In this document: positions 1-18,247 of the stretch, in pieces
Layout of the letters: each line of letters starts with the position of its first letter
Position numbering within the stretch: the stretch's first letter is position 1
Source of the DNA: a virus
Taxonomy: Duplodnaviria > Heunggongvirae > Uroviricota > Caudoviricetes
Virus record (IMG/VR): IMGVR_UViG_3300021400_000048
Span: 1 to 56,790 of that record
Strand: one strand, 5' to 3'
DNA: 56,790 bases
Translations under genes and position numbers: made by a program
Notes under the pieces: model-generated
Told to the model about the DNA's origin: nothing
Seen by the model: the letters and a program-made list of their open reading frames with translations, nothing else
Database searches by the model: none

Positions 1-233
1 TCATCTAACGATAATGTTGATGGATAATCTTCAACCTGCTTCACTTCCCTCTTCGAGACGCACTGTTAAAGTAATCGAAGTCTTTGATTACACATCTACG
101 GAATACGTTCTCACGCAACCGCATCTATAATAATAGTATAGACTAATTTTACTTGCAACCTATTATTTAGTCATTTCCTCTATTACCACAGCTTCCCAAG
201 AATATTTTTATTCAATTTAGACCGTGTTTTGGT

Positions 234-318
234 TGGTTGCGGAGGTCAGGAGTCGAACCTGCTATCTCAAGGTTATGAGCCTTGAATGGTTTATAGATAT
301 CCGTGCCACTCCTCCGCA
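234..318 (-). tRNA. tRNA-Met(CAT), fMet-like 3' end, enlarged D region
   Basis: CAAGG-CTCATAA-CCTTG anticodon arm, TTCGACT T-loop, TGCGGAG/CTCCGCA acceptor, encoded CCA. Confidence 0.8.
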
Positions 319-329
319 ATATTAATAGA

Positions 330-417
330 AGTTCCAGCCTGACCCTACCAAGCCCCTCATATTTTTGAGTCTATAGCCTCTAAATATGCATGCCACAACT
401 TCCAGCACCTTGGAACT
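330..417 (-). ncRNA. Candidate small structured RNA
   Basis: Terminal stem AGTTCCA/TGGAACT, inner stem CATATTT/AAATATG, starts directly after a TTGTATAAT promoter (421-435). Confidence 0.4.
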
Positions 418-420
418 ATT

Positions 421-435
421 ATATTATACAATAAA
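421..435 (-). promoter_or_regulatory. Sigma70-like extended -10 promoter motif (TATTGTATAATAwwAT), repeated through the window
   Basis: Further copies at about 4551, 7601, 11001, 11157, 13021, 18741, 23296, 27760, 30997, 32001, 35670, 43167, 45961, 46055 (minus) and 46111 (plus, before the topoisomerase B gene), each at an operon start. Confidence 0.75.
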
Positions 436-708
436 AATTTTAAAATTATTTGAAAGTTTTTTGACTACAGGATAACTTGCAACCCGCCCACCATCCAGTG
501 CGATTTATTATATTCTCACTTATGAATACACTTTGCACAAACATTTGAAGGAAAATTTTTCCAAATAAATCGCAGTAGGCTTCCCTGTCACAGTAAACCT
601 CTTAATAGCCTGATCTTGAATTTATATAGCGAAACGCAGGGTTTTTTCGCTGGCCAGATTTTCTCAATTATGGATAGTTAGAAAATCTCGACCATATATT
701 AAATATAC

Positions 709-783
709 TGGTCCTCCCAGATTGAATTGAACAATCACTCTTGCCCTTATAAGGAGCCTGCTTTACCATTAAGCTACAGGAGG
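709..783 (-). tRNA. tRNA-Ile(TAT)
   Basis: Cloverleaf, loop CT-TAT-AA, CCA. Confidence 0.8.
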
Positions 784-785
784 AT

Positions 786-859
786 TGGTGGAGACAGCTG
801 GAATCGAACCAACATAGTTAGATGGTACCACTTCCTAACCTTTACCAAAATTCGTCCCC
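786..859 (-). ncRNA. tRNA-like RNA, reduced D-arm, 13-nt anticodon loop
   Basis: GGGGACG/TGTCTCC acceptor, TTCGATT T-loop, CCA; GTTAG-GAAGTGGTACCAT-CTAAC. Confidence 0.55.
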
Positions 860-863
860 ATAT

Positions 864-940
864 TGGTAGAAGCGGAAAGACTTGAACTTTCAACCTCTCG
901 GTTATCGGCCGAGTGCGCTAACCAGTTGTGCCACGCTTCC
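864..940 (-). tRNA. tRNA-Ile(GAT)
   Basis: Cloverleaf, loop CC-GAT-AA, CCA. Confidence 0.9.
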
Positions 941-1207
941 AGAGACCTCAGGCCCGAATGACACTGAAGTATGATCCTGCAGATTTAGCCTCATCTGCAA
1001 AAGCCTCAGTTCTTCTCAAACCTGAACACTGATAAAACGGTTGTATCGCTTAGTATGCCAAGTGCATCTGTCGATCAATTAACCAATATTTGATCCAAAC
1101 TAAGCTAGTCTGTTAGTCTCTTAACCACCCGGCACAGACAACTGGTAGCATTTCGTTTGCTCACGCCTATCTTTTTTGGTTAGAGGCATAAGAATTAGTC
1201 CTCTTAA

Positions 1208-1286
1208 TGGTGGATCCAAAGAGAATTGAACTCTTCTGATTTCCGCATTGCAGGTGCGGCGACCACCCCATGCAGTCCCTGAACCC
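1208..1286 (-). tRNA. tRNA-Ala(TGC)
   Basis: CCGCA-CCTGCAA-TGCGG, CCA. Confidence 0.85.
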
Positions 1287-1289
1287 AAA

Positions 1290-1510
1290 TTATAAATAGG
1301 GTTGCTTAAGGTGAACCCTCTAACGCCTCGTTTATGGCGACACAACCTATTAACCGAATACACCGTTTCCAGCCGTTTAATAGGACAAAATATTTTGACT
1401 TTTTAAAAATAGTACATACGATATTATAACCTTGCAGGCACAACCCTGCTAGCAAGACTTTCTCCTGGAGTTCCCCGGCTTTCTTAATCTTATTTTTGGG
1501 CATTTCAGCT
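1290..1510 (-). ncRNA. Candidate structured RNA
   Basis: Relatively GC-rich intergenic block with nested helices (CTTGC-TAGCAGG-GTTGTG-CCTGC-AAG). Confidence 0.3.
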
Positions 1511-1618
1511 TATTCAATATATTAAGTAGTCCACTTACTATTAATAATTATTCTTTTTAAAGTCGACATCCAAAGAAATTATTAATAACACTCAATTCAG
1601 TACCAGGTGGTGGAACAT

Positions 1619-1694
1619 TGGCGTGCTTAGAAAGATTCGAACTCTCGTCTGTTGGTTCGTAGCCAACTAGTTTCTCCAATTAGCCTATAAGCAC
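1619..1694 (-). tRNA. tRNA-Arg(ACG)
   Basis: GTTGG-CTACGAA-CCAAC, CCA. Confidence 0.9.
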
Positions 1695-1699
1695 AAAAT

Positions 1700-1875
1700 A
1701 ATCAGGTCTTTGGTGACTCTGCGAATTTCCACACCTAGTATGTTATCCAATTCCCTAACGCTATACTCGGGTTATCGACCTGAAGCTCCTTCGCTCTCTT
1801 TGTAGTTTATTCGAACACTATAACGATATCGATTTTATTTATTGTCTGAACAGCACGACTGTCTTTCTTTTTCGA
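1700..1875 (-). ncRNA. Candidate structured RNA
   Basis: CAGGTC/GACCTG closing stem, GGTG/CACC inner stem, AGACAG..GTCT-type hairpin, no ORF. Confidence 0.35.
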
Positions 1876-1899
1876 TAAATAGACATTTAATCCATATTA

Positions 1900-2115
1900 T
1901 TATAGCCTATCAGCAATAACTGCTAATATTACACCAATGATAATTAATAAAAGGCCTAAACCAATACTAAAAATTATTGGACTTAATACCCAAAACCAAT
2001 TCCAGTCAATAACTCCACATAATTTTAATACTACAAAAACAATTGTTAATATAGAGCCTAGTCCAAGACCTCCACTTCTTACTACTTTTGTTTCTTGTTT
2101 TGGTTCATTATACAT
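1900..2115 (-). CDS. Small two-TM membrane protein (holin-like possible)
   Basis: 71 aa, two hydrophobic segments, SD AAAGGA. Confidence 0.7.
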   Translation of the reverse strand: MYNEPKQETKVVRSGGLGLGSILTIVFVVLKLCGVIDWNWFWVLSPIIFSIGLGLLLIIIGVILAVIADRL

Positions 2116-2137
2116 ATTAATTTTTCCTTTCTTTTAA

Positions 2138-2223
2138 TGGTGGGCAGAGAAGGAGTTGCACCTCCGTTGTTTCTATGTGAGGGATTTACAGTCCCTTGCC
2201 CTCGCTGCTAGGCATACCTGCCC
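2138..2223 (-). tRNA. tRNA-Tyr(GTA)
   Basis: AGGGA-CTGTAAA-TCCCT, long variable arm, CCA. Confidence 0.9.
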
Positions 2224-2227
2224 AATT

Positions 2228-2302
2228 TGGAGCAAGTGGACGGGATCGAACCGACACTCCCAGCTTGGAGGGCTGGAGCACTAACCATTATACTACACCT
2301 GC
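2228..2302 (-). tRNA. tRNA-Gly(TCC)
   Basis: CCAGC-CCTCCAA-GCTGG, U73, CCA. Confidence 0.9.
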
Positions 2303-2310
2303 AAATATTT

Positions 2311-2375
2311 GGCCTAACTAATATGAATTTCTTAGCAGGAAAATGCCTTACGGCTAGAAATAAGTATAGGCTCTA
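2311..2375 (-). repeat. Bracket element C (short insert containing TCCTGCTA)
   Basis: TAGA-GCCTA-T-AC-TTATTTCT ... TCATATTA-GT-TAGGC-C. Confidence 0.8.
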
Positions 2376-2392
2376 TTTTATTTTTAATTTAA

Positions 2393-2505
2393 GGCTGAAC
2401 TTTTATTTTGGCGAGAATAGGATTTGAACCTATAACCTCTGGACTAGAATTCCAGTGCTCTACCAATTGAGCTATCCTGCTAAAAAGAAATAAGTATCAG
2501 CTCTA
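2393..2505 (-). tRNA. Bracket element B enclosing an atypical tRNA(TCT) (2409-2481) with shortened acceptor 3' strand
   Basis: TAGA-GCTGA-T-AC-TTATTTCT-TTTT|AGCAGGA...CTGGA-ATTCTAG-TCCAG...CCTAT-TCTCG-CCA|AAATAAAA-GT-TCAGC-C. Confidence 0.7.
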
Positions 2506-2523
2506 TTTTTATTTTTAATTTTT

Positions 2524-2642
2524 GGCTCAGCTAACATTACGGTGCTCTACCTCTGAGCTATATCCTAGGCACTGCTAGAATAGCAAGATTTGAACTTGCG
2601 ACCACCGGCTTACAAGGCAAATAGAAATAAGCATGAGCTCTA
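2524..2642 (-). tRNA. Circularly permuted tRNA-Thr(TGT) in bracket A (3' half 2576-2618, 5' half 2540-2567)
   Basis: Rejoined at 29/30 it gives a full cloverleaf: acceptor TAGGATA/TATTCTA, anticodon stem CCG|GC/GCCGG, loop CTTGTAA, T-arm GCAAG-TTCAAAT-CTTGC; 8-nt linker. Confidence 0.9.
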
Positions 2643-2644
2643 TC

Positions 2645-2736
2645 TGGCGGAGAGTGTAGGATTCGAACCTACGGTCCCCCTTACGGAGGACGACAGTTTA
2701 GCAAACTGCTGGGTTAAGCCACTCCCCCAACTCTCC
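2645..2736 (-). tRNA. tRNA-Ser(GCT)
   Basis: Loop TT-GCT-AA, long variable arm, G73, CCA. Confidence 0.9.
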
Positions 2737-2743
2737 GTATAAA

Positions 2744-2820
2744 TGGTGACCCCAGCGGGATTCGAACCCACAATCTCAGCTGTGAAGGAGCCGTGACTTA
2801 ACCAATTCGTCTATGAGGCC
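2744..2820 (-). tRNA. tRNA-Glu(TTC)
   Basis: CGGCT-CCTTCAC-AGCTG, CCA. Confidence 0.85.
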
Positions 2821-2825
2821 ATATA

Positions 2826-2903
2826 TGGCGGCCCAACTAGGACTTGAACCTAGGACCTACGGTTTAACAGACCGTTGCTACTAACCAACTGAGCTACTGG
2901 GCC
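2826..2903 (-). tRNA. tRNA-Asn(GTT)
   Basis: ACGGT-CTGTTAA-ACCGT, G73, CCA. Confidence 0.9.
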
Positions 2904-2912
2904 ATTAGCTCG

Positions 2913-4088
2913 CTATTCACAAGCTTTGAAGTTGTAAATAGGAGTTATTATATTAATTATTTCAATAGTATCACTGACTTTATCAATGATTTCTTGAGCA
3001 TTTTTATATACCATTGGTGCTTCATCAATAGTATCTTGGTCTGCAGTTGTAGTATAAATACCTTGCATTGCATTTTGGAAATCTTCTAATTGTAAATTTG
3101 CTCTTGCTTCACTTCTTGACATAATGCGTCCAGCACCATGTGGAGCAGAATAATTCCAATCTTCATTTCCTTTTCCAATACCAATTATACTACCATCTCG
3201 CATATTTAAAGGTATAATTAATTTTTGTCCTTTATAGGCAGAAATTGCACCTTTACGAACTATATTATCATCACCAATATAATTATGAATAGATTCAAAA
3301 ATATTAATTGGTCTTATATTTAAGAATTTTAATATTTTTTCTAACATTAATCTTCTATTTTCTTTTGCAAAAACTTGACAAATTCTCATATCATGAAGAT
3401 ATTGTTCTCTTAATTCACCTTCTAAAAAACATAAATCTTTTGGAATTGAATAATCTTCAAATTGCTTATGTAAATCTTTTAATGCATCAGAAATTTCTGC
3501 TTGGCGACCTTGTGCTTTTAATTTAGCAATTAGCTCAACACTTTTTTCCTTAAAGAAATCATTATGACACATTTTAACTGCTTTATCTTGATAAATATCA
3601 GCAACTTGCTTTCCTAAATTTCTTGAGCCTGAATGAATTACTAAATATTTATTATCATCAGCATCTTTATCAATTTCAATAAAATGGTTTCCGCCGCCTA
3701 ATGAACAAATACTTAATGCTAAATAATCTTTATTTCTTAATTCATTATAGCAATATAATTTAGTAATGTCAAAATCTTCAACAATATAATCATTTGCATT
3801 CATTCCGCTTGGAATTTTTGTTTTGATAAAATTATCAACAGCTTCTAAATTAATATCAACTTTACCAAGTTCTGCAACAATTACACCGCAACCAATATCT
3901 ACACCAACAATATTTGGAATTACTTTATCACCTAAGTTCGCAGTAAAACCAATTACACATCCTGCACCAGCATGAACATCTGGCATAATTCTTACCTTAG
4001 CATTTCTAAATGGCGCAAGATTTAATAAAGTATAAATTTGATTTGTTGCTTTTGGATCAATATTTTCTGTGAATATTTTTAAATTCAT
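2913..4088 (-). CDS. rtcB: RtcB family RNA ligase
   Basis: MPDVHAG, GVDIGCG, SLGGGNHFIE, IHSGSR, HNYI, SAPHGAGR, DEAPMVYK motifs; ATG at 4088 after AGGTG (ORF track starts at 4097). Confidence 0.95.
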   Translation of the reverse strand: MNLKIFTENIDPKATNQIYTLLNLAPFRNAKVRIMPDVHAGAGCVIGFTANLGDKVIPNIVGVDIGCGVIVAELGKVDINLEAVDNFIKTKIPSGMNANDYIVEDFDITKLYCYNELRNKDYLALSICSLGGGNHFIEIDKDADDNKYLVIHSGSRNLGKQVADIYQDKAVKMCHNDFFKEKSVELIAKLKAQGRQAEISDALKDLHKQFEDYSIPKDLCFLEGELREQYLHDMRICQVFAKENRRLMLEKILKFLNIRPINIFESIHNYIGDDNIVRKGAISAYKGQKLIIPLNMRDGSIIGIGKGNEDWNYSAPHGAGRIMSRSEARANLQLEDFQNAMQGIYTTTADQDTIDEAPMVYKNAQEIIDKVSDTIEIINIITPIYNFKACE

Positions 4089-4106
4089 TCTAATCACCTA
4101 ATTTCT

Positions 4107-4287
4107 GACATGACTAATATAACGCCGGCTTTACCAATTTGCCTATTTCCCCAAATTGGCCGAACTTCTTATAAAATAACCCAAATATTTGTAAAAAGAA
4201 ATAAGTATCGGCTCTATCTGGTGGGGAAAGCTGGAATCGAACCAGCATACAGCGGCTCCCAAAGCAAAGAAATAAGTACAGGTTCTA
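4107..4287 (-). tRNA. Circularly permuted tRNA-Pro(TGG) (3' half 4219-4265, 5' half 4123-4152)
   Basis: Rejoined at 29/30: acceptor GGGGAAA/TTTCCCC, stem GCG|GC/GCCGC, loop TTTGGGA, T-arm GCTGG-TTCGATT-CCAGC, A73-CCA; outer bracket ACCTG-T-AC / GT-CATGT. Confidence 0.9.
4158..4216 (-). repeat. Bracket element D nested in the linker of the permuted tRNA-Pro
   Basis: TAGA-GCCGA-T-AC-TTATTTCT ... TATAAGAA-GT-TCGGC-C. Confidence 0.8.
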
Positions 4288-4291
4288 TTTT

Positions 4292-4365
4292 TGGCAGGCA
4301 CTGAAAGAATCGAACTCTCATCAGGTGTTTTGGAGACACTTATTCTACCGTTAAACTAAGCACCT
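4292..4365 (-). tRNA. tRNA-Trp(CCA)
   Basis: Loop CT-CCA-AA, G73, CCA. Confidence 0.85.
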
Positions 4366-4379
4366 ACTATACTATTATA

Positions 4380-4454
4380 TGGTCCCAGTTGCTTGACTCG
4401 AACAAGCATTGGTCGGGTATGAACCGACTTTCCTAGCCGTTAAAAGAAACTGGG
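4380..4454 (-). tRNA. tRNA(CAT), Met or Ile2
   Basis: GTCGG-TTCATAC-CCGAC, CCA. Confidence 0.8.
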
Positions 4455-4459
4455 ATAAA

Positions 4460-4534
4460 TGGTGCCGATTGACAGATTCGAACTGCCATTAGAAGTTTAC
4501 AAGACTACTGTACTAGCCATTATACGAAACCGGC
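4460..4534 (-). tRNA. tRNA-Thr(TGT), linear
   Basis: GCCGGTT/AATCGGC acceptor, loop CTTGTAA, one T-T mismatch in the anticodon stem. Confidence 0.85.
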
Positions 4535-4740
4535 AATGTTATTTACTACATTATATTATACAATAAAATATAGTAAATTTAGTAGAATTATTTTATTTCA
4601 TTTAAGTTTAAATTATAATCAATAAATAATTCTGCAACAGTGTTTAAAAAGCTTTTAACTCTTCTTAACATTTTATTATTTCCCTTCTAGGTTTTAACGT
4701 CTTTTATCTTGACAATTTTACTAGAAGAAGATGAAGCCAT

Positions 4741-4816
4741 TGGGGTGTCCTGCCAGAATTGAACTGACAACTTCAGGGCCACAACCTAACGTGATAACCA
4801 TTTCACCAAGAACGCC
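4741..4816 (-). tRNA. tRNA-His(GTG)
   Basis: Loop TT-GTG-GC, G-1/C73, CCA. Confidence 0.85.
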
Positions 4817-4824
4817 ATATATAT

Positions 4825-4898
4825 TGGAGCATCGAGTCAGGATCGAACTGACGGTCAGGGTGTTGCAGACCCTTGCCTTACCGCTTGGCTACCGATGC
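4825..4898 (-). tRNA. tRNA-Cys(GCA)
   Basis: AGGGT-CTGCAAC-ACCCT, U73, CCA. Confidence 0.9.
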
Positions 4899-4904
4899 AA
4901 GTAT

Positions 4905-4981
4905 TGGTACCTTACATAGGAGTAGAACCTATACTGTAATGGGTTTGAGCCATCTTTCTCTACCAGTTGGAATAGTAAGGC
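4905..4981 (-). tRNA. tRNA(CAA), nominal Leu, short variable arm
   Basis: GATGG-CTCAAAC-CCATT, CCA. Confidence 0.7.
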
Positions 4982-5010
4982 ATGTAAAGCTAAGTTTAAA
5001 AACTTAACTT

Positions 5011-5430
5011 TTAATTATTTTCTCTGGCAATCTTACTTACTAAAGCCATATCAACTTGTCCATTATAGTTTGTTTTGAAAAACTTCATAATAGATGGGAT
5101 TGACTTATCAGGCAAATCATTGATTAATTCTTTTATTTTATCTTCTGATAATTGTTTTGGTAAGTATTCTTTAATTAATTCTTTTTGTTTTGTTAATTCG
5201 TCAGCTTTTTCAATTCTATTTACTTTTACATTAGCCTCAATTTCTTCATCTAATTGTTTATTTAATTTTCTTATAATATTATAAACTTCAGAATCCCCTA
5301 ATGTATCTGTTCTTAATTCAATAGTTTTATTTTTTAAACTATTATAAAGTAAACCAAGAATATTCTTCGCTAATTCATTTTTTTCTTTTCTGGCATTGAT
5401 AAAATCTGTATAAATCTTATTATATAGCAT
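5011..5430 (-). CDS. GatB/YqeY domain protein
   Basis: 139 aa helical; ARKEKN, K..REIKEYLPKQLSED, GQVDMALVSK pattern of YqeY. Confidence 0.85.
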   Translation of the reverse strand: MLYNKIYTDFINARKEKNELAKNILGLLYNSLKNKTIELRTDTLGDSEVYNIIRKLNKQLDEEIEANVKVNRIEKADELTKQKELIKEYLPKQLSEDKIKELINDLPDKSIPSIMKFFKTNYNGQVDMALVSKIARENN

Positions 5431-5453
5431 ATTTATATTCCTTTCTTGTCTTT

Positions 5454-5538
5454 TGGAAGAGTGATTAGGATTTGCACCTAAACTTGCTGTGTCTGTAATT
5501 ACCCCTGGGAGCTATGCTACTAGTTACATTATCACTCT
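5454..5538 (-). ncRNA. tRNA-like RNA with expanded non-canonical anticodon arm
   Basis: AGAGTGA/TCACTCT acceptor, TTAGG-TGCAAAT-CCTAA, U73-CCA; GCT[22 nt]AGC in place of the anticodon arm. Confidence 0.55.
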
Positions 5539-5543
5539 ATTAA

Positions 5544-5620
5544 TGGTGCGCCCAGCAGGACTCGAACCTGCAAAATTCAGTTTCTAAGACTGGCACCTAT
5601 ACCAGTTCGGTTATGAGCGC
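5544..5620 (-). tRNA. tRNA(TAG), nominal Leu, short variable arm
   Basis: CCAGT-CTTAGAA-ACTGA, CCA. Confidence 0.8.
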
Positions 5621-5623
5621 ATA

Positions 5624-5700
5624 TGGTCAGGGTAGTAGGATTCGAACCTACAACTTCTAAGTTCCAGGCCTAGTGGTCTACCAAATTGACGTATACCCTG
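5624..5700 (-). tRNA. tRNA-Pro(TGG), linear
   Basis: C1-G72, A73, loop CC-TGG-AA. Confidence 0.85.
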
Positions 5701-5706
5701 ATTTAT

Positions 5707-5796
5707 TGGCGAAGAGTGTAGGATTTGAACCCACGGTGGCTTTCACCACGTCTGATTTCAAGTCAGGTGCAATAAACCAAACTCTGCCAACTCTCC
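5707..5796 (-). tRNA. tRNA-Ser(TGA)
   Basis: Loop CT-TGA-AA, long variable arm, G73. Confidence 0.9.
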
Positions 5797-5807
5797 AAAA
5801 TTATTCA

Positions 5808-5981
5808 CTAATTTAATTCTTTTTTAGTTTCTGATTTTTCTTTTTGTCTTAAGTGCTTTCTATGAAGTCTACCTTTAACAAAATCCTTATAGACTTTGCA
5901 ATGTCTTCTAACTCGTTTATTTTTTCTTTGACAAGTTAAATAATCACACCAACAACAACAATTAATTATTTCTTTCTTCAT
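5808..5981 (-). CDS. Small basic Cys-rich hypothetical protein (57 aa)
   Basis: SD AAGGA; MKKEIINCCCWCDYLTCQRKNKRVRRH... Confidence 0.45.
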   Translation of the reverse strand: MKKEIINCCCWCDYLTCQRKNKRVRRHCKVYKDFVKGRLHRKHLRQKEKSETKKELN

Positions 5982-5998
5982 AAATAATTCCTTTTTAA

Positions 5999-6074
5999 TG
6001 GCGGTCCCCCTTGGAATTGCACCAAGTTCTGCGGATTTTCAGTCCGCTGCATAGACTACCTCTGCCAGAGAACC
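5999..6074 (-). tRNA. tRNA-Phe(GAA)
   Basis: GCGGA-CTGAAAA-TCCGC, CCA. Confidence 0.85.
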
Positions 6075-6082
6075 ATATATTT

Positions 6083-6152
6083 GGCCTAGCTTCACACCCA
6101 TTGATTAAAAGTCAATTGCTCTATTGAGCTCTAGAAATAAGCATAGGCTCTA
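6083..6152 (-). repeat. Bracket element E enclosing D- and anticodon arms of a tRNA-Lys(TTT)
   Basis: TAGA-GCCTA-T-GC-TTATTTCT-AGAGCTCAATAGAGC-A-ATTGA-CTTTTAA-TCAAT...GC-TAGGC-C. Confidence 0.8.
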
Positions 6153-6162
6153 ATTATTTATT

Positions 6163-6249
6163 TGGTGGCCCGGGTGGGATTTGAACCCACACGCCTTTAC
6201 GGGCAAGGGATTTTAAGTCCCTCGTGTCTACCTATTCCGCCACCGGGCC
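6163..6249 (-). tRNA. tRNA-Leu(TAA)
   Basis: Anticodon TAA, long variable arm, A73-CCA. Confidence 0.9.
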
Positions 6250-6253
6250 ATAT

Positions 6254-6334
6254 TGGTGCAGGAAGGCAATGACTCCAGACTTGCATTTCTCATTTCTGAG
6301 CGTTCTTTTTATCGAGCAGTTGAACTACTTCCCT
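6254..6334 (-). ncRNA. Degenerate tRNA-like RNA with GAAA-tetraloop arm
   Basis: AGGGAAG/CTTCCTG acceptor-like stem, ends ACCA, CTCA-GAAA-TGAG in place of the anticodon arm. Confidence 0.4.
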
Positions 6335-6487
6335 ACGATTTAGAACTAGCTACAAATCGAGAAAACTTGCTATTTTTAAGTTGATTTATTTGCCACCTAT
6401 CCATAATGTGGTCGTGGAGATACTTATATACCGCACTCTCTGGGTCCTTAGGGCGGTCCAACTGGTTTATTTAGTTTTCCTTCTAAT

Positions 6488-6564
6488 TGGTGCTCTGAGC
6501 ATGGATCGAACCTACGACATCTTGCTTGTAGGACAAGTGCTCATCCCAACTGAGCTATCAGAGC
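6488..6564 (-). tRNA. tRNA-Val(TAC)
   Basis: Loop CC-TAC-AA, CCA. Confidence 0.9.
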
Positions 6565-6568
6565 ATAT

Positions 6569-6643
6569 TGGAGCAGATAAACAGGATCGAACTGTCATTT
6601 CAACCATGGCAAGGTCGCGTAATAGCCATTATACCATATCTGC
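6569..6643 (-). tRNA. tRNA-Gly(GCC)
   Basis: CGACC-TTGCCAT-GGTTG, U73. Confidence 0.9.
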
Positions 6644-6651
6644 AAATTTAT

Positions 6652-6726
6652 TGGCATCCCCAGAAGGATTCGAACCTTCACAAATGGCTTAGAAGGCCAT
6701 TGGTCTTTCCGTTAGCCTATGAGGAT
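6652..6726 (-). tRNA. tRNA-Arg(TCT)
   Basis: ATGGC-CTTCTAA-GCCAT, G73. Confidence 0.85.
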
Positions 6727-6729
6727 ATT

Positions 6730-6805
6730 TGGTGCGTCTTCAGAGATTCGAACTCTGGACCAACAGATTAAGAGTCTGCTACTCTACCAGCTGAGTTAAA
6801 GACGC
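6730..6805 (-). tRNA. tRNA-Lys(CTT)
   Basis: GCAGA-CTCTTAA-TCTGT. Confidence 0.9.
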
Positions 6806-6813
6806 GCAACTAT

Positions 6814-6889
6814 TGGTGCGCTTGAACAGGCTCGAACTGTCGACCCACGGATTAAAAGTCCGCTGCTCTACCTACTGAGCTACAAGCGC
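6814..6889 (-). tRNA. tRNA-Lys(TTT)
   Basis: GCGGA-CTTTTAA-TCCGT. Confidence 0.9.
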
Positions 6890-6960
6890 ATAAAGTTTTC
6901 GATATTTAGTTGTTTGTTTAGATTTTCGCTTCATACGCTTAATCTCCTTTAATTTATTTT

Positions 6961-7035
6961 TGGCAGGGCCGTGCTGATTTGAACAGCAATTTACTGGGTC
7001 AAAGCCAGTTGAACTAACCATTGTTCTACAGCCCT
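6961..7035 (-). tRNA. tRNA-Gln(TTG)
   Basis: ACTGG-CTTTGAC-CCAGT, G73-CCA. Confidence 0.85.
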
Positions 7036-7129
7036 AAATAATTTTACAATATTATTATACTATATATTTTTTAATTTGTAAATAGTTTTTAAAACGAAAA
7101 CGTTTTCTATTTAGTAAATTCAAAACAGC

Positions 7130-7157
7130 GAAAAAAAATGGATCCTTACGGACCCAA
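7130..7157 (-). terminator. Intrinsic terminator
   Basis: GGGTCC-GTAA-GGATCC followed by a T-tract. Confidence 0.7.
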
Positions 7158-7205
7158 AGATATATATGAACATCTATTCCAAAAATATACTAAGACTTGA
7201 TATTC

Positions 7206-7622: not shown

Positions 7623-8621
7623 TTAAAATTTTAAACCAATTTTAAAATAAATTTCAGAAATTTTTTTATCTGCTCTTATTTTAGCTTTTTCAGCGCCGGT
7701 CATTAAAATTTTATTTAATTTATTAATATCAGTTTTTAACTCATTTACTTTATTTTGAATTTTTAAACATTCTGCACAAACAATATCTGCAACAGCTTTT
7801 TTAAAAATTCCATAATCTTTTTCATCTTTAAATATTTCTACAGCATCTTCTATAGAAATATCTTTTAAGCCAGCATAGATAGAAAGTAAATTACTAATTC
7901 CAGGCTTATGCTCAGGATCATAATAAATTTTACTTTCTGCATCTGTAACTGCTTTCATAATTTTTTTACGAGTTTTTTCAATATCTTCTAAAAGATAAAT
8001 AGTTCCTTTATCAGATTCAGATTTACTCATCTTTTTTGTTGGGTCAGATAAAGACATAATTTTAGCACCAGTTTTTGAAATAATAGGTTTTGGTAATTTA
8101 AAAGTTTCACCATAAGTTCTATTAAATCTATCAGCAAGTATTTTAGTTAATTCAATATGTTGGACTTGATCAATACCAACAGGAACATAATCGGCATCAT
8201 ATAATAATATATCTGCAGCCATTAAACTTGGATACATAAAAATTCCTGTTGGAATGCCTTCATGAGCAGTTATACTAGCTGCCTTTAGCTGATATTGATG
8301 CATTTCATAAAAATGTCTCATAACAGAATTACAAGTTAATATCCACTCTAATTGATTATGAGCAGGAACATCTGACTGTTTAAATAATACTGTTTTTTTA
8401 TCATCTAACCCAGCAGCTAAATATGTTGCAATTAAATTTAGTGAATTTTCTTTTAATTCTTCTGGCTTAATTGGAAGTGTTAATGCATGCAAATCAGCAA
8501 TAAATATATATAAATTATATTCATCTTGATATTTTACAAGCGGTTTAATTGCTCCAAGCAATGTGCCAAGAGTTGGTATACCTGTTGGTTTTATACCAGA
8601 TAACATTATAGCTTTATTCAT
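7623..8621 (-). CDS. trpS: Tryptophanyl-tRNA synthetase
   Basis: SGIKPTG, HIGH-like TLG, YPSLMAADILLY, VPVGIDQVQHIELT, KMSKS. Confidence 0.95.
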   Translation of the reverse strand: MNKAIMLSGIKPTGIPTLGTLLGAIKPLVKYQDEYNLYIFIADLHALTLPIKPEELKENSLNLIATYLAAGLDDKKTVLFKQSDVPAHNQLEWILTCNSVMRHFYEMHQYQLKAASITAHEGIPTGIFMYPSLMAADILLYDADYVPVGIDQVQHIELTKILADRFNRTYGETFKLPKPIISKTGAKIMSLSDPTKKMSKSESDKGTIYLLEDIEKTRKKIMKAVTDAESKIYYDPEHKPGISNLLSIYAGLKDISIEDAVEIFKDEKDYGIFKKAVADIVCAECLKIQNKVNELKTDINKLNKILMTGAEKAKIRADKKISEIYFKIGLKF

Positions 8622-8622
8622 A

Positions 8623-10995
8623 TTAAGCCTCTAAAATATTTCTAGTTAATACTTCTGGTAATAATTCTTCAATATGACTAACTGGAATAATTTTTAAATT
8701 ATTTTTAATTTCATCTGGCAAATCTTCAATATCTCGCTCATTTTCTTTTGGAATATAAATTGTATCAAGACCTGCTGTATAAGCCGCAATTGATTTTTCT
8801 TTTAGACCACCAATTGGAAGAATACGGCCTCTTAATGAAATTTCACCAGTCATACCAACATTATGTTTTACTGGAGTATCTGACATAGCACTTAGCATTG
8901 CAGTAACAAATGTTACACCAGCAGATGGTCCATCTTTAGGTACTGCTCCTTCTGGACAGTGAATATGTAAGTCAGAGTGGAATTGTGAATTAGTCATATT
9001 AAATAACATTTTATGAGATTTAATCCAGTTATAAGCAGCTTCTGCAGATTCTTTCATTACTTCACCAAGATTACCTGTAATTGTATAACTACCATTACTA
9101 TCATCTTTACCTTGAGTTGCTACTGCTTCAATTTGTAAAACATCTCCACCAAAATCAGTATAAGCTAAACCATTAACAACGCCAACTAAATCTTCTTTTT
9201 CAACGATATCATAGTCATACTTTCTCTTGCCAAGCATTTCTTTTAATAAAGCAGTATCAACAACAACTTTATCTAAATGCTCAGACATAATCTTTTTAAT
9301 AGATCTTCTAACTACTGTATCAATACAACGTTCTAATTGACGAGCACCAGCTTCACGTGTATAATATCTAATTAATTCATCTAAAGCTTCATCAGTTATT
9401 TTAAATTTTTCAGGTTCAAGACCATTTTTTTCTAACGATTTAGCAATAGTATGTTCCCTTGCAATATTAAATTTTTCAAGTCTTGTATAGCTTGACAATT
9501 CAATAATTTCCATTCTATCTCTAAGAGGTGCTGGAATTGAATATAAATCATTAGCTGTACAAATAAACATAACTTCTGATAAATCAAATTCTAATTCAAG
9601 ATAATGATCCATAAAATGTTCATTTTGTGCAGGGTCTAAAACTTCAAGTAATGATGCGCTTGGGTCACCTTTATAATCAGCACCAAGTTTATCTATTTCA
9701 TCTAATAGGAATACAGGATTTTTAGAGCCAGCTTCTTTAATACCATTAATAATTCTACCTGGCAAAGCTCCTAAATAAGTTCTTCTATGACCTCTAATTT
9801 CAGCTTCATCTTTTACACCGCCAAGTGATTGCTTAACAAACTTTCTTCCAAGTGCTTCAGCTATTGATTTTGCAATAGTTGTTTTACCAGTTCCTGGAGG
9901 GCCAGCTAAGCAAAGAATAGTTTGTGGTGTTTTTTGAGAATATAATTTAACTGCAAGATAATCTAAAATTCTTTCTTTAGGCTTATCAAGACCAGAATGT
10001 GTTTCATCAAGTTTTGCTTTAACAGCATCAATATCTGTATTATCTTCAGTTCTTACATTCCAAGGAAGTGCAAGTAAAGTATCAAGATAGTTTCTAATCA
10101 TTGAAGATTCGGGTGAAGCGCCATTTGTTGATTGATAGCGCTTTAACTCTCTTAATGCTTGGTTTTCTGCAGCCTCATGCATACCAATAGATTTAATTTT
10201 TTCCCTTAGACTATCTATATCAGCAGTAGCTTTATCAACATCACCAAGGTCCTCTTGAATAGCTCTTAATTTTTTTCGTAAATAGTATTCTTTTTGCTCT
10301 TTCATTATATCAGCTTGTACAGAGCTTTCAATTTGTCTATCAATTTCTGCAAGCTTTTCAACCTGTAGCATTAAAGAAGCAACTTTATGAAGTCTACTAT
10401 TAAACTCAGTATCAGCTAAAAAATCATAGATATTAACTTTAACTACTGACAAATTTGCAACAATTGTATCACAAAGTAAGGACTTCTTATCTTCTGCATC
10501 TAAGTATTGCTCAACAGCAAAAATATCTGAAAAAACTTGGTCTTTATATTTTCTTGCTTTTTTACAAATTACATTAAAAAGAGCAGCTGATTCATCTGTA
10601 AGATCTTCAGTATCAGTATAAACTTGAAGGTCTGCACATTGATAGTTAAGAACTTCAGCCCCAATTGAATTATTTAATTCAAAAGTATCATCCATCATAC
10701 TTACTAAATAAGCTCTTTTTTCTAAAACAATGTTAAATGATACACTTTCATCTGAAATAAAAGTAATATTTTGAAAAGTGCCAAATAGCCCAGCTGGCTT
10801 TACTGTTAGAGTTTCTTTATCTCTAAAAAATACACTTACTTGATTCTTAAAATAATTTTGTGATACTTTACATGTATCTATAAAAAATTTACTCGCAGTT
10901 ACCAAATTAATAGTTGTTCCAGGCAAAACTGGTTCTTCATCAAATACTATTATTGGTGCTTGTTTAATTTCTTGATAAGTCATATAATACCTCAT
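8623..10995 (-). CDS. lon: Lon ATP-dependent protease
   Basis: GPPGTGKT, LLDEIDK, PKDGPSAG catalytic Ser, ILPIGGLKEK. Confidence 0.95.
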   Translation of the reverse strand: MRYYMTYQEIKQAPIIVFDEEPVLPGTTINLVTASKFFIDTCKVSQNYFKNQVSVFFRDKETLTVKPAGLFGTFQNITFISDESVSFNIVLEKRAYLVSMMDDTFELNNSIGAEVLNYQCADLQVYTDTEDLTDESAALFNVICKKARKYKDQVFSDIFAVEQYLDAEDKKSLLCDTIVANLSVVKVNIYDFLADTEFNSRLHKVASLMLQVEKLAEIDRQIESSVQADIMKEQKEYYLRKKLRAIQEDLGDVDKATADIDSLREKIKSIGMHEAAENQALRELKRYQSTNGASPESSMIRNYLDTLLALPWNVRTEDNTDIDAVKAKLDETHSGLDKPKERILDYLAVKLYSQKTPQTILCLAGPPGTGKTTIAKSIAEALGRKFVKQSLGGVKDEAEIRGHRRTYLGALPGRIINGIKEAGSKNPVFLLDEIDKLGADYKGDPSASLLEVLDPAQNEHFMDHYLELEFDLSEVMFICTANDLYSIPAPLRDRMEIIELSSYTRLEKFNIAREHTIAKSLEKNGLEPEKFKITDEALDELIRYYTREAGARQLERCIDTVVRRSIKKIMSEHLDKVVVDTALLKEMLGKRKYDYDIVEKEDLVGVVNGLAYTDFGGDVLQIEAVATQGKDDSNGSYTITGNLGEVMKESAEAAYNWIKSHKMLFNMTNSQFHSDLHIHCPEGAVPKDGPSAGVTFVTAMLSAMSDTPVKHNVGMTGEISLRGRILPIGGLKEKSIAAYTAGLDTIYIPKENERDIEDLPDEIKNNLKIIPVSHIEELLPEVLTRNILEA

Positions 10996-11080: not shown

Positions 11081-11155
11081 TGGCGGAGGCTGAAGGATTC
11101 GAACCCTCGATGATGGTTTTGAAGACCATAGGCATAACCACTTACCGAAGCCTCC
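11081..11155 (-). tRNA. Opal suppressor tRNA-Trp(TCA)
   Basis: GGAGGCT/AGCCTCC acceptor, ATGGT-CT-TCA-AA-ACCAT, short variable arm (not Sec), G73-CCA; has its own promoter and terminator. Confidence 0.92.
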
Positions 11156-17255: not shown

Positions 17256-17972
17256 CTAATCATCTTCAACAAGAGTTTTAACAATGTTAAACGTCATGTT
17301 CATTCTTAATTGTCCACCCATAACAGAGTCAATACAATCTTCATCCCAACCTTCTAACCAAATAAATAAAGTGTACTTTTTGACATCACTAGGTCTAAAA
17401 GACTCAAAAGTGTTTGTGCACACTCTACCATTTGATTCAAAGTCTTTTGACAACTCATATGGGGTATGATCGTAGTAATTTATTGGATTAGAATCCGCTT
17501 TTCTATAAATTGATAAATGTGTTAAATCATCATCTTGTATTAGCATCACTCTTGCAGCTGCATCAATATTTTTTGTAACATTTACAATATCAATATTGAA
17601 TTCTACATCTACAATTGTGTTTCCTTCGTTCATAAGATAGAAGGTATAGCCAATATAAGTTAATCCTTTCGGATCATCAAAGTCACCATCTGTTGACATA
17701 CATTCTTGTATTGCTATATCATCAAACGATACAGGCATTGAGTTGTTAACTGGGTTAACCAACAAACGAGGACTTGAAGTTGTGAATTCTTTATTATCTG
17801 ATAAGATAATACCTGTCCTAAAGGCATCATCACCAAGTGATATAACGAATGTTCCCATGTTTTGACCAAAGAACGCTAACACACCGATGATTGCTGATAA
17901 CAAACCTGTAACTAATATTCCAAGAAGTAAGAAGTTCTTGGTAATCAGATACTTCGTTGTCAGTAATTTCAT
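17256..17972 (-). CDS. Membrane-anchored protein, first gene of the riboswitch operon
   Basis: TM ending GVLAFF; KKYTLFIWLEGWD..C C-terminal motif; SD GGAGGTG. Confidence 0.75.
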   Translation of the reverse strand: MKLLTTKYLITKNFLLLGILVTGLLSAIIGVLAFFGQNMGTFVISLGDDAFRTGIILSDNKEFTTSSPRLLVNPVNNSMPVSFDDIAIQECMSTDGDFDDPKGLTYIGYTFYLMNEGNTIVDVEFNIDIVNVTKNIDAAARVMLIQDDDLTHLSIYRKADSNPINYYDHTPYELSKDFESNGRVCTNTFESFRPSDVKKYTLFIWLEGWDEDCIDSVMGGQLRMNMTFNIVKTLVEDD

Positions 17973-17994: not shown

Positions 17995-18085
17995 AAATAA
18001 AAACCAATTGCTTTTTGCAACTGGCTGTCTCTTCTTAGACCCTATAGCTTTGCGTCACAAGATTTCTCTTGCTTTGCCTTAAATT
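17995..18085 (-). promoter_or_regulatory. GEMM-I (c-di-GMP-I) riboswitch, downstream copy, G20 type, with terminator
   Basis: GGCAAA-GCAAGA-GAAA-TCTTGT-GACGCAAAGCTATAGGGTCTAA..GACAGCCAGTTGC; terminator CCAGTTGC/GCAATTGG-TTTTTT. Confidence 0.9.
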
Positions 18086-18116
18086 ATACGTACTAAGCTT
18101 TTTATTAAAATAAAAT

Positions 18117-18205: not shown

Positions 18206-18247
18206 TTTTACATTTAATTTAGCTAATATTTTAACTAATATTTTTAG

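What the first reader, a model, noticed from the sequence alone, without database searches (positions are those of the whole stretch)
2524..2642. Permuted tRNA-Thr(UGU) with an 8-nt linker
Seen, minus-strand order: leader, GC-CTTGTAA-GCCGG-TGGTC-GCAAG-TTCAAAT-CTTGC-TATTCTA, linker GCAGTGCC, TAGGATA-TA-GCTC-AGAGGTA-GAGC-A-CCG, trailer. Rejoining gives 7/7 acceptor pairs (one G-U), a 5/5 anticodon stem (CCG|GC with GCCGG) and canonical D and T arms. It has no encoded CCA, and U1-A72/A2-U71/G73 are atypical for ThrRS identity (usually G1-C72, C2-G71). A linear Thr-UGU exists at 4460-4534, so this copy may be charged differently, or act as a backup or decoy.
Basis: seen in the sequence. Interest (0 to 1): 0.88.

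Follow-up and report, generated by a model that had tools for sequence, protein, structure and literature searches.

The report
Phage tRNA look-alike on RNA bracket
The "inside-out" tRNA-Thr is real and conserved, but it is most likely a small phage RNA that imitates a tRNA while held on a conserved stem, rather than a gene that is spliced into a working tRNA.

Summary
Observation confirmed. On the minus strand, 2618-2576 is a tRNA 3' half, 2575-2568 an 8-nt cap and 2567-2540 the 5' half. ARAGORN calls the rejoined sequence tRNA-Thr(UGU).

The element is not isolated. It is the cargo of a covarying "bracket": 5' arm TAGAGCNNATRCTTATTTCT, 3' arm AGY-UNNGC-C. The bracket occurs 8 times in this 223-kb rumen phage and in 75 cassettes from 37 related viral loci.

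Cargo types:
- anticodon hairpins alone
- D arm plus anticodon arm
- T arm plus capped acceptor
- about 20 permuted whole tRNA shapes
- a few normal-order tRNA-like units

Eleven Thr-type modules show compensatory changes in all six helices. Nothing points to splicing:
- no BHB motif and no splicing endonuclease
- no encoded CCA, although all 26 canonical tRNAs here have one
- tight hairpin caps
- break position varies among relatives
- RtcB is absent from four near-complete relatives
- the one RNA-library contig is colinear with the DNA

The bracket RNAs accompany a roughly 650-aa helical plus TerD-domain protein gene. Best reading: an uncatalogued Y-RNA-like tRNA mimic, probably a bait or tether in tRNA-directed conflict.

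The scan has met this RNA-protein pairing before on other DNA. I found no paper or Rfam family describing it. A true permuted tRNA gene keeps about 12% probability.

The parts
2623..2642 (-). 5' bracket arm TAGAGCTCATGCTTATTTCT: helix 1 GCUCA, bulged U, helix 2 GCU, then the invariant UAUUUCU
   Evidence: It is one of 8 copies in the genome and 75 cassettes overall. Arm positions covary with the 3' arm.
2619..2622 (-). Leader linker AUUU between the bracket and tRNA position 30
   Evidence: Length is 1-6 nt in homologues.
2576..2618 (-). tRNA-like 3' half: positions 30-31, anticodon loop CUUGUAA, 3' strand of the anticodon stem, variable loop UGGUC, T arm, acceptor 3' strand UAUUCUA
2568..2575 (-). 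Cap loop GCAGUGCC closing the acceptor stem. G73 and C-1 can pair, and there is no CCA.
   Evidence: (minimum-energy fold gives 8 bp plus a 6-nt loop).
2540..2567 (-). tRNA-like 5' half: acceptor 5' strand UAGGAUA, U8 A9, D arm, A26, positions 27-29 CCG
   Evidence: (local Rfam YrlA match at 2538-2607).
2533..2539 (-). Trailer linker UAAUGUU
2524..2532 (-). 3' bracket arm AGC-UGAGC plus the invariant C. It pairs with the 5' arm.
4107..4287 (-). Sister cassette B. Permuted tRNA-Pro(UGG)-like unit with ACCA after its acceptor strand. Cassette C (4158-4216, a Pro-UGG anticodon hairpin) is nested in its cap.
   Evidence: The arrangement is conserved in L031.
2393..2505 (-). Sister cassette E. The same bracket around a normal-order tRNA-Arg(UCU)-like unit whose acceptor stem has two A-C mismatches.
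2311..2375 (-). Sister cassette F. Bracket with a small hairpin plus a Ser-GCU-type anticodon hairpin.
6083..6152 (-). Sister cassette A. Bracket with a D arm plus a Lys-UUU anticodon arm, and no T arm or acceptor.
2913..4097 (-). RtcB RNA ligase gene lying between cassettes D and B. It is a neighbour, not shown to act on the element.
   Evidence: PF01139, 191.9 bits. RtcB is absent from relatives G001-G004.

Best explanation
Positions 2524-2642 (minus strand) encode one small non-coding RNA of about 119 nt.

A conserved two-helix bracket, formed by the 5' and 3' ends, holds a complete tRNA-shaped body. In this body the acceptor stem is closed by a loop, and the chain enters and leaves through the 5' strand of the anticodon stem. 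The RNA is therefore a tRNA mimic with the same inverted topology as bacterial YrlA Y RNAs. Unlike YrlA, it also displays an intact Thr-type anticodon stem-loop.

It is one member of a modular phage RNA family. The same bracket presents whole tRNA shapes or parts of them. The family's genes accompany the gene for a roughly 650-aa protein with a helical domain and a TerD domain.

Inferred mechanism (not shown):
- The invariant unpaired bracket nucleotides (AGA, the bulged U, UAUUUCU, the 3' C) are the handle for that protein or another factor.
- The tRNA-shaped cargo acts as a bait or tether for enzymes that recognise tRNA, such as anticodon-arm nucleases, modification enzymes or repair enzymes.
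- This would protect or supplement the phage's own tRNA supply.
- The RNA is not spliced into a decoding tRNA. At most, RNase P may open the cap, as happens with M. smegmatis YrlA.
For: Shown:
1. The rejoined sequence is a canonical cloverleaf.
2. The bracket motif occurs 7 times (plus one degenerate copy) in the genome, against 0 for the reversed control. It is present in 37 IMG/VR loci.
3. Of 80 motif hits, 77 have the exactly matching 3' arm downstream and 75 were kept as cassettes. There are 20 helix-1 variants, each with its own partner, and 6 of 8 bracket pairs covary. Arms from other cassettes match in only 2.6% of trials. Among 120 chance-level hits in bacterial genomes, only 2 have the partner arm.
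4. Cargo is modular. Of 42 short cargos, 21 contain a canonical anticodon-like hairpin, against 2.0 in shuffles. Others are a T arm plus capped acceptor. About 20 are permuted whole tRNA shapes.
5. In 11 aligned Thr-type modules all six helices covary, including the 27-29:41-43 segment that joins the two halves. The anticodon loop is C-U-N-N-U-A-A in 10 of 11, and only positions 34-35 change: UGU, UUU, GUU, UCU, GCU.
6. Caps are 3-13-nt hairpin loops, one reading cUUCGg. In this copy position 73 can pair with -1.
7. There is no CCA here, whereas all 26 canonical tRNAs of the array encode it.
8. The best Rfam match is YrlA, restricted to the tRNA-like core: 33.8 bits, model positions 23-87.
9. 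A conserved roughly 650-aa gene lies beside cassettes in 10 IMG/VR loci, in all 4 additional contigs read, and in this genome at about 96 kb. Its C-terminal domain has the TerD fold (Z 15.5).
10. An RNA-library contig runs colinear through the 5' half, the cap and part of the 3' half (record 9).

From the literature:
- YrlA mimics tRNA with a capped acceptor. M. smegmatis YrlA is cut by RNase P and receives CCA (PMC4201824).
- A synthetic tetraloop-capped permuted tRNA mimics a nicked tRNA (PMC10159003).
- The PARIS nuclease AriB cleaves tRNA-Lys(UUU), Thr(UGU) and Asn(GUU) in the anticodon stem (PMC12409363). This is the same kind of set as displayed here.
Against: - No RNA ends, abundance or protein binding have been measured. 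The function is inferred from design and gene neighbourhood alone.
- This particular copy lies about 90 kb from the TerD-domain gene. It sits next to RtcB, inside a tRNA array.
- The anticodon loop is perfectly canonical. The displayed anticodons (UGU, UUU, GUU, UCU, GCU) also match abundant A-starting codons of an AT-rich phage, so a decoding role would also explain them.
- The Pro-type sister modules keep ACCA in their caps in five orthologues. That looks like a real 3'-end processing site.
- The phage encodes a CCA-adding enzyme and two RNA ligases.
- The Ro60-like fold that earlier scan notes claimed for the partner protein was not reproduced here.
Confidence: 0.65

Rival explanations
1. 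True circularly permuted tRNA gene. The bracket would be a processing signal. An unidentified nuclease would cut at the two stem boundaries, leaving 2',3'-cyclic phosphate and 5'-OH ends. RtcB (or the Rnl1-type ligase after end healing) would join G29 to G30 into a circle. RNase P and 3' trimming would remove the 8-nt cap, the phage CCA-adding enzyme would add CCA, and a working tRNA-Thr(UGU) would result.
For: - The rejoined sequence is a flawless cloverleaf.
- The Thr and Pro units in this window share the same break point.
- RtcB lies between them.
- The genome also encodes a CCA-adding enzyme and a second ligase.
- Pro-type caps keep ACCA.
- RtcB can circularise a synthetic permuted tRNA that has the right ends (PMC10159003).
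Against: - There is no BHB motif at the junction and no tRNA splicing endonuclease or archease in the phage.
- Linker lengths and break positions differ among homologues: 28/29, 29/30, 31/32, or no anticodon loop at all.
- The same bracket encloses cargo that cannot become a tRNA, and also normal-order tRNA-like units.
- RtcB is absent from four 95-100% complete relatives that carry permuted modules. Two of these also lack an Rnl1-type ligase.
- This copy has no CCA, unlike all 26 real tRNAs here.
- The acceptor sequence differs completely between the two Thr orthologues.
- Canonical Thr and Pro tRNAs are already present.
- No back-joined contig was found in four RNA libraries. This last point is weak.
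Confidence: 0.12
2. Two-piece tRNA-like RNA. RNase P would open the cap, the 3' end would be trimmed and given CCA, and the two pieces would stay together through the bracket, acceptor and anticodon-stem pairs. This is what happens with two-piece tmRNA and M. smegmatis YrlA. The product might be aminoacylated and act off the ribosome, or sequester ThrRS or EF-Tu.
For: - A 7-bp acceptor is maintained in all 11 aligned modules, with compensatory changes.
- M. smegmatis YrlA, which has a 7-bp stem, is cut by RNase P and receives CCA in vivo (PMC4201824).
- ACCA is kept in Pro-type caps.
- The phage encodes a CCA-adding enzyme.
Against: - G73 can pair with C-1, and many caps are tight 4-6-nt loops. 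Pairing of the leader with the 3' end hinders RNase P (PMC9433436 abstract).
- The one RNA-library contig covering this region runs straight through the cap.
- U1-A72 and A2-U71 are not the usual ThrRS acceptor determinants (my own knowledge of E. coli ThrRS).
Confidence: 0.15
3. Decayed or rearranged tRNA pseudogene with no function. It would be a by-product of recombination between tandem tRNA genes.
For: - It lies in a dense tRNA array.
- Similar AU-rich spacer sequence occurs before it and before the next unit.
Against: - Homologous modules in ten other contigs keep every helix through compensatory changes.
- The flanking 'spacers' are the covarying bracket.
Confidence: 0.02

Closest known systems
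YrlA-type bacterial and phage Y RNAs (Rfam RF02553; Chen et al. 2014, PMC4201824; Wang et al. 2018, bioRxiv 10.1101/312249)
   Same: - The order of elements along the chain is the same: T arm, acceptor stem closed by a loop, D arm.
- The 5' and 3' ends form a basal stem where the anticodon arm would be.
- Sequence features are tRNA-like.
- In Salmonella the genes lie in an operon with rtcB.
- YrlA is the best Rfam hit here (33.8 bits).
   Different: - The score is below the gathering threshold of 69, and only the tRNA-like core aligns.
- The basal stem has a different signature, with no GNCGAAN0-1G motif.
- There is no Ro60/TROVE gene in the genome.
- This RNA keeps a complete anticodon stem-loop as a third branch.
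- The accompanying protein family has a helical plus TerD architecture.
Circularly permuted tRNA genes of Cyanidioschyzon merolae, green algae and Thermofilum pendens (review PMC3978253)
   Same: - The 3' half is encoded upstream of the 5' half, with a short intervening sequence at the acceptor end.
- Rejoining gives a canonical cloverleaf.
- Breaks within the anticodon stem are known in that group.
   Different: - Those genes have a BHB motif at the junction. They are processed by the splicing endonuclease and a ligase through a circular intermediate, then by RNase P and tRNase Z.
- They are known only in algae and one archaeon, and they are the cell's only source of the tRNAs concerned.
- Here there is no BHB and no endonuclease, canonical copies are redundant, and a bracket is shared with non-tRNA cargo.
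Two-piece (circularly permuted) tmRNA (Rfam RF04321 and relatives)
   Same: - It is a bacterial precedent for a permuted tRNA-like gene in which the acceptor 3' strand (with CCA) precedes the 5' strand.
- The loop between the strands is removed without any ligation.
   Different: - There is no tag reading frame and there are no pseudoknots.
- ARAGORN finds no tmRNA in the window.
- There is only a 20-bit chance-level hit, at the Pro unit.
- This RNA has D and anticodon arms.
Synthetic circularly permuted, tetraloop-capped tRNA-Leu used as a nicked-tRNA mimic (PMC10159003)
   Same: - The design is the same: the acceptor end is closed by a small loop and the chain ends lie in the anticodon arm.
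- It is recognised by the RNA-repair regulator RtcR, and RtcB can ligate it.
   Different: - It is artificial.
- Its ends are free in the anticodon loop and carry a cyclic phosphate.
- In the phage RNA the ends run on into a conserved bracket helix.

Membership tests
Circularly permuted tRNA gene | 3' half upstream of the 5' half on one strand; the rejoined sequence folds as a tRNA | tested here: met
   ARAGORN calls the rejoined sequence tRNA-Thr(tgt).
Circularly permuted tRNA gene | Leader and trailer form a bulge-helix-bulge motif at the junction | tested here: not met
   The trailer has no 4-nt complement to the first four exon-2 bases GCCU. The flanks instead form an 8-bp bracket with a bulged U plus AU-rich linkers.
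Circularly permuted tRNA gene | tRNA splicing endonuclease available to cut the junction | tested here: not met
   PF01974 is absent from the complete 223-kb phage genome, and the controls did respond. The host genome is unknown.
Circularly permuted tRNA gene | Circular intermediate or rejoined mature RNA exists | tested here: inconclusive
   Four metatranscriptome runs, held as contigs only, gave one colinear contig (2407-2605, depth 2) and no back-joint at 2540/2618. These data cannot show absence.
Circularly permuted tRNA gene | Intervening sequence is removable, giving a discriminator plus CCA end | tested here: inconclusive
   There is no CCA, against 26 of 26 canonical tRNAs with it. G73 can pair with C-1. 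A CCA-adding enzyme is encoded.
YrlA Y RNA (RF02553) | tRNA-like domain in the order T arm, capped acceptor, D arm | tested here: met
   Local match at 2538-2607, model positions 23-87, 33.8 bits, E = 3.7e-6 on the 161-nt stretch searched.
YrlA Y RNA (RF02553) | Reaches the Rfam gathering score over the full model | tested here: not met
   33.8 bits against 69. The basal-stem parts of the model do not align.
YrlA Y RNA (RF02553) | Ro60-binding helix with the GNCGAAN0-1G motif (PMC4201824) | tested here: not met
   There is no such motif in 2524-2642. The stem signature is AGA-N5-U-RCU-UAUUUCU.
YrlA Y RNA (RF02553) | Encoded next to a Ro60/TROVE gene | tested here: not met
   PF05731 is absent from the genome. 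The conserved neighbour protein did not return Ro60 in four structure searches.
Bracket RNA family of rumen and gut jumbo phages (uncatalogued) | 5' arm TAGAGCNNATRCTTATTTCT, with a downstream 3' arm that is its exact complement, followed by C | tested here: met
Bracket RNA family of rumen and gut jumbo phages (uncatalogued) | Genome carries the roughly 650-aa helical plus TerD-domain gene with bracket RNAs beside it | tested here: met
   The gene lies at 93,947-95,971 of the genome, with two cassettes directly upstream. The same pairing is seen in L049-L052 and in 10 IMG/VR loci. This copy itself is about 90 kb from the gene.
Two-piece tmRNA | Tag reading frame and pseudoknots joined to the tRNA-like domain | tested here: not met
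   ARAGORN finds no tmRNA. There is no Rfam tmRNA match at this element.

The most novel reading that the evidence does not exclude
The bracket is a splice signal of a bacterial-virus tRNA back-splicing pathway. A still unidentified nuclease would cut at the stem boundaries, and RtcB (or the host ligase) would close the cargo. A permuted gene would thus give a functional tRNA-Thr, or a covalently closed, exonuclease-proof circular tRNA. This would be the first permuted tRNA gene outside algae and archaea, and the first without a BHB motif or splicing endonuclease.
Probability: 0.12. Interest if true: 0.95.

Novelty: new variant of a known kind. Interest (0 to 1): 0.6.

Why it matters
Phages carry tRNA genes partly to survive host nucleases that destroy tRNAs. 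This element suggests a second strategy. A family of stable RNAs would display whole tRNA shapes, or just the anticodon arm or the acceptor/T half, on one standard handle, probably together with a dedicated protein.

If these RNAs are baits or tethers for tRNA-directed enzymes, they would form a new class of RNA-based counter-defence or RNA-repair cofactor. They would also offer a natural scaffold for presenting RNA modules.

The family also warns annotators. A perfect "permuted tRNA" in a bacterial virus need not be a tRNA gene.

If the minority reading is right, tRNA back-splicing would exist in bacteria or their viruses without the archaeal/eukaryotic machinery.

Tried and rejected
- **Self-cleaving ribozyme or known RNA motif in the bracket.** Rfam at E up to 5 over positions 1-7200, and up to 10 over 2500-2660, gave only tRNA, a local YrlA match and chance-level hits.
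- **Close relatives among deposited phages.** Only tRNA-level similarity was found.
- **Ro60 partner.** There is no TROVE domain in the genome. The neighbour protein's N-terminal domain, folded alone, matched only generic helical repeats (best Z 6.3, Foldseek E >= 0.16). The Ro60-like ring reported in earlier scan notes was therefore not reproduced. This does not exclude it.
- **Neighbour protein by sequence.** Pfam, PHROGs and PDB sequence searches gave nothing.
- **RtcB as a constant companion.** It is absent from G001-G004 and from five partial relatives. The RtcB copy of G005 is cut off by the contig end.
- **RNA evidence.** Two run searches and one read-laying found only low-depth contigs from relatives, with no raw reads. 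The "go-back" joints reported (for example 2561 to 2483) are aligner splits between similar D arms of neighbouring units, not back-splices. Regions without cover say nothing.
- **Bracket in bacterial genomes.** The 120 pattern hits are at the number expected by chance for a pattern with 16 fixed bases plus one R in 596 Gb. Only 2 have the 3' arm, both on MAG contigs.
- **Integron attC-like or MITE-like DNA repeat.** Rejected because the helices vary freely while the unpaired bases stay invariant, which is the signature of a structured RNA.
- **H-type pseudoknot between AGA and UCU of the bracket.** Rejected on geometry, because no linker is available to cross an 8-bp helix.
- **First regex.** My first pattern had the wrong spacing and found nothing. 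It was corrected.

Full report
**1. Observation**

One search fixed the coordinates of the three tRNA-like parts:
- tRNA 3' half (positions 30-72): 2618-2576
- 8-nt GCAGUGCC: 2575-2568
- tRNA 5' half (positions 1-29): 2567-2540

ARAGORN finds 27 tRNAs in the window, 26 of them in a minus-strand array at 709-7035. It does not find this element in place. Given the rejoined 71-72 nt, it returns tRNA-Thr(tgt) with a regular cloverleaf.

The linear Thr(tgt) at 4460-4534 is not a close copy. The rejoined sequence is at most 72% identical to any tRNA of the window, and this linear Thr gene is not among its six closest.

**2. The element is the cargo of a repeated bracket**

The 20 nt upstream (2642-2623, TAGAGCTCATGCTTATTTCT) recur six times on the minus strand of the array. 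Genome-wide there are seven copies plus one degenerate copy at about 96 kb. The reversed control pattern gives none. The genome is a complete 223,464-bp phage with terminal repeats.

Each copy has, downstream, the exact complement of its two variable helices followed by C. The exception is cassette B, whose 3' arm has one mismatch. Examples are GCUCA/UGAGC here, and GCCUA/UAGGC, GCCGA/UCGGC and GCUGA/UCAGC elsewhere. The second helix is RCU/AGY, with a bulged U between the two helices.

An exact-pattern scan of IMG/VR returned 37 loci. In them and in the window:
- 77 of 80 motif hits have their own 3' arm, and 75 were kept as cassettes.
- There are 20 different helix-1 sequences, each with its own partner, and six of eight bracket pairs covary.
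- AGA, the bulged U, CUUAUUUCU and the 3' C do not vary. This is partly imposed by the search pattern.

Two controls support the pairing:
- Arms from other cassettes fit in 2.6% of trials.
- 120 hits in bacterial genomes are at the number expected by chance, and only 2 have the partner arm.

Variable helices with invariant unpaired bases mark a structured RNA. They do not fit a promoter or a transposon end. The finding's coordinates, 2524-2642, are exactly one such cassette.

**3. What the brackets hold**

Cargo lengths run from 23 to 152 nt.
- Of 42 short cargos, 21 contain a stem of at least 4 bp with a 7-nt Y-U-NNN-R-N loop. Shuffles give 2.0 on average (maximum 7 in 200). The loops are Lys-UUU, Pro-UGG, Cys-GCA, Thr-UGU and Ser types, often preceded by a D-arm-like hairpin.
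- Others hold only a T arm and a capped acceptor helix.
- About 20 are permuted whole tRNA shapes.
- A few are normal-order tRNA-like units. One is the window's Arg(UCU) unit at 2408-2482, whose acceptor stem has two A-C mismatches.

The window also holds a second permuted unit, Pro(UGG), at 4107-4287. Another cassette is nested in its cap, and the arrangement is conserved in L031 with a compensatory change in the acceptor stem.

**4. Comparative structure of the Thr-type module**

Eleven modules from different contigs, carrying Thr, Lys, Asn, Arg and Ser-type loops, were aligned. They were scored against the bracket plus permuted cloverleaf.
- 96.8% of cells are paired, against 76.9% in shuffles.
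- 19 of 29 pairs change on both sides.
- 0 of 500 shuffles reach any of the measures.
- Sliding the partner columns drops pairing to 30-45%.

All six helices are supported. That includes all seven acceptor pairs and the three pairs (27-29 with 41-43) that join the two halves.

The anticodon loop is C-U-N-N-U-A-A in 10 of 11 modules. Only positions 34-35 change, on an otherwise shared chassis. For example, the window's loop region GCCUUGUAAGCCGG corresponds to GCCUUCUAAGCCGG in L050.

**5. Is it spliced into a tRNA?**

The defining features of known permuted tRNA genes are:
- a BHB motif at the junction
- the splicing endonuclease
- a circular intermediate
- removal of the intervening sequence by RNase P and tRNase Z (PMC3978253)

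Here the flanks do not form a BHB. The trailer has no complement to the first bases of the 3' half, and both cut sites would lie at one point of a continuous stem.

The phage has no splicing endonuclease, no archease and no TROVE protein. It does have RtcB at 2913-4097, a CCA-adding enzyme and an Rnl1-type ligase ORF.

RtcB is not a constant companion:
- Four 95-100% complete relatives with permuted modules lack it.
- Two of those four also lack the Rnl1 type.

Other points against splicing:
- The break position and linker lengths differ among homologues: 28/29 in L009, 29/30 in most, and 31/32 in L013 and L022. In a subgroup that matches the YrlA layout exactly, the anticodon loop is absent.
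- Caps are hairpin loops of 3-13 nt, one reading cUUCGg. Here G73 can pair with C-1, giving an 8-bp stem.
- All 26 canonical tRNAs of the array encode CCA, and this element does not.

The only RNA evidence comes from low-depth metatranscriptome contigs. One runs colinear from 2407 to 2605 through the cap. No back-joint was reported. This is weak and does not exclude processing.

One feature points the other way. Five Pro-type orthologues keep ACCA at the start of their caps. RNase P opening of some family members, as in M. smegmatis YrlA (PMC4201824), therefore remains plausible.

**6. Closest known design**

The only notable Rfam match is YrlA, restricted to the tRNA-like core and below threshold (33.8 against 69 bits). 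The topology is the same: T arm, capped acceptor, D arm, with the ends forming a basal stem.

The differences are:
- The stem signature differs, with no GNCGAAN0-1G motif.
- There is no Ro60 gene.
- This RNA keeps an anticodon stem-loop.

A synthetic tetraloop-capped permuted tRNA is a working mimic of a nicked tRNA for the RtcR/RtcB repair system (PMC10159003). That shows such designs are recognised as tRNA.

**7. A partner protein**

Earlier notes of this scan described "holder plus tRNA-like" RNAs lying beside one protein gene. Prompted by them, I clustered the ORFs near cassettes. One family of about 650 aa lies beside cassettes in 10 loci. In this genome it sits at 93,947-95,971 (minus strand), directly behind a promoter, two cassettes and a terminator.

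It has at least 537 homologues, none annotated. Every one of four further contigs that I read has 1-3 cassettes within 300 nt upstream, and most have more downstream.

Structure (AlphaFold model, mean pLDDT 80):
- The C-terminal domain has the TerD fold (Z 15.5, rmsd 2.3 Å over 146 residues to 2qz7_B). Full-length AFDB relatives are named TerD family proteins.
- The N-terminal 400 residues are a helical repeat. No Ro60 match appeared in my searches.

Neighbouring genes are tRNA-related or RNA-repair genes: PNK-phosphatase-Rnl1, TrpRS and YqeY.

That this protein binds the bracket is an inference from gene linkage. It has not been shown.

**8. Mechanism proposed**

Shown:
- a conserved, covarying RNA with a tRNA-shaped body on a bracket
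- a modular family
- linkage to one protein family

Inferred:
- The bracket is the handle and the tRNA shape is the working end.
- The RNA acts as a bait or tether for tRNA-recognising enzymes.

The displayed loops are Lys-UUU, Thr-UGU, Asn-GUU, Arg-UCU, Ser-GCU and Pro-UGG. They overlap the target set of at least one anti-phage nuclease that cuts the anticodon stem: PARIS AriB, whose targets are Lys-UUU, Thr-UGU and Asn-GUU (PMC12409363). A decoy role is therefore attractive, but it is only one possibility.

**9. Novelty and score**

I found no paper on permuted tRNAs in bacteria or phages, or on this bracket or protein. There is no Rfam family for it.

The scan itself has met the same RNA-protein pairing on other genomes, and earlier follow-ups reached a similar reading. 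The kind (a tRNA-mimicking, Y-RNA-like small RNA) is known. The scaffold, the retained anticodon arm, the modular cargo and the TerD-type partner are new variants of it.

Interest is 0.6. The residual chance (about 0.12) of a genuine back-spliced tRNA would be of very high interest.

Noticed in passing
window 4107-4287 (-): Second permuted tRNA-like unit, Pro(UGG). Its acceptor 3' strand is followed by ACCA, and a complete bracket cassette (4158-4216, a Pro-UGG anticodon hairpin) is nested in its cap. Its outer 3' arm ends about 10-20 nt before the rtcB start. The arrangement is conserved in L031, with a compensatory change in the acceptor stem.
   Followed up: partly
window 2141-2223 (-): Rfam calls a tRNA here (43.9 bits) that ARAGORN misses. 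By eye it is a long-variable-arm tRNA with loop CUGUAAA (anticodon GUA, Tyr).
   Followed up: no
window 789-859 (-) and 238-318 (-): Two sub-threshold tRNA-like matches: tRNA at 25.1 bits and tRNA-Sec model at 27.5 bits. They may be further tRNA-like RNAs or degenerate genes.
   Followed up: no
window about 1-700, 950-1200, 1290-1620, 1700-1900, 6260-6480 (-): GC-richer stretches without ORFs lie between the tRNA genes and have no Rfam match at E up to 5. They look like further structured RNAs of the tRNA island.
   Followed up: no
window 18013-18088 and 18133-18206 (-): Two tandem c-di-GMP-I riboswitch aptamers (64.6 and 55.2 bits) lie upstream of the ORF at 17256-17972. This is unusual cargo for a phage.
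   Followed up: no
window 11081-11155, 7623-8621, 8623-10995 (-): Three neighbouring genes: a tRNA with anticodon UCA (reads TGA), a class I Trp/Tyr-type aminoacyl-tRNA synthetase gene (212 bits), and a Lon protease gene. This is consistent with the TGA=Trp recoding that earlier notes reported for this phage. A YqeY-domain gene sits inside the tRNA array at 5011-5430.
   Followed up: partly
genome G000 89,555-90,211 and 218,974-219,345 (outside the window): An Rnl1-type RNA ligase domain lies in a 782-aa ORF about 4 kb from the TerD-domain gene. A CCA-adding enzyme gene lies near the genome end, next to the tRNA island across the terminal repeat. The phage therefore carries two RNA ligases of different chemistry.
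   Followed up: partly
L018 654-760 (+): A bracket encloses a normal-order tRNA-like unit whose anticodon loop is reduced to 4 nt. ARAGORN calls it tRNA-???. This is another non-decoding tRNA shape in the family.
   Followed up: no
window 2524-2645 and 4216-4221 (-): Cassettes D and C both start two bases (GA) after a CCA: that of tRNA-Ser(GCU) for D, and that of the Pro 3' half for C. The 5' end of a bracket RNA may therefore be set by 3' processing of the upstream tRNA.
   Followed up: no
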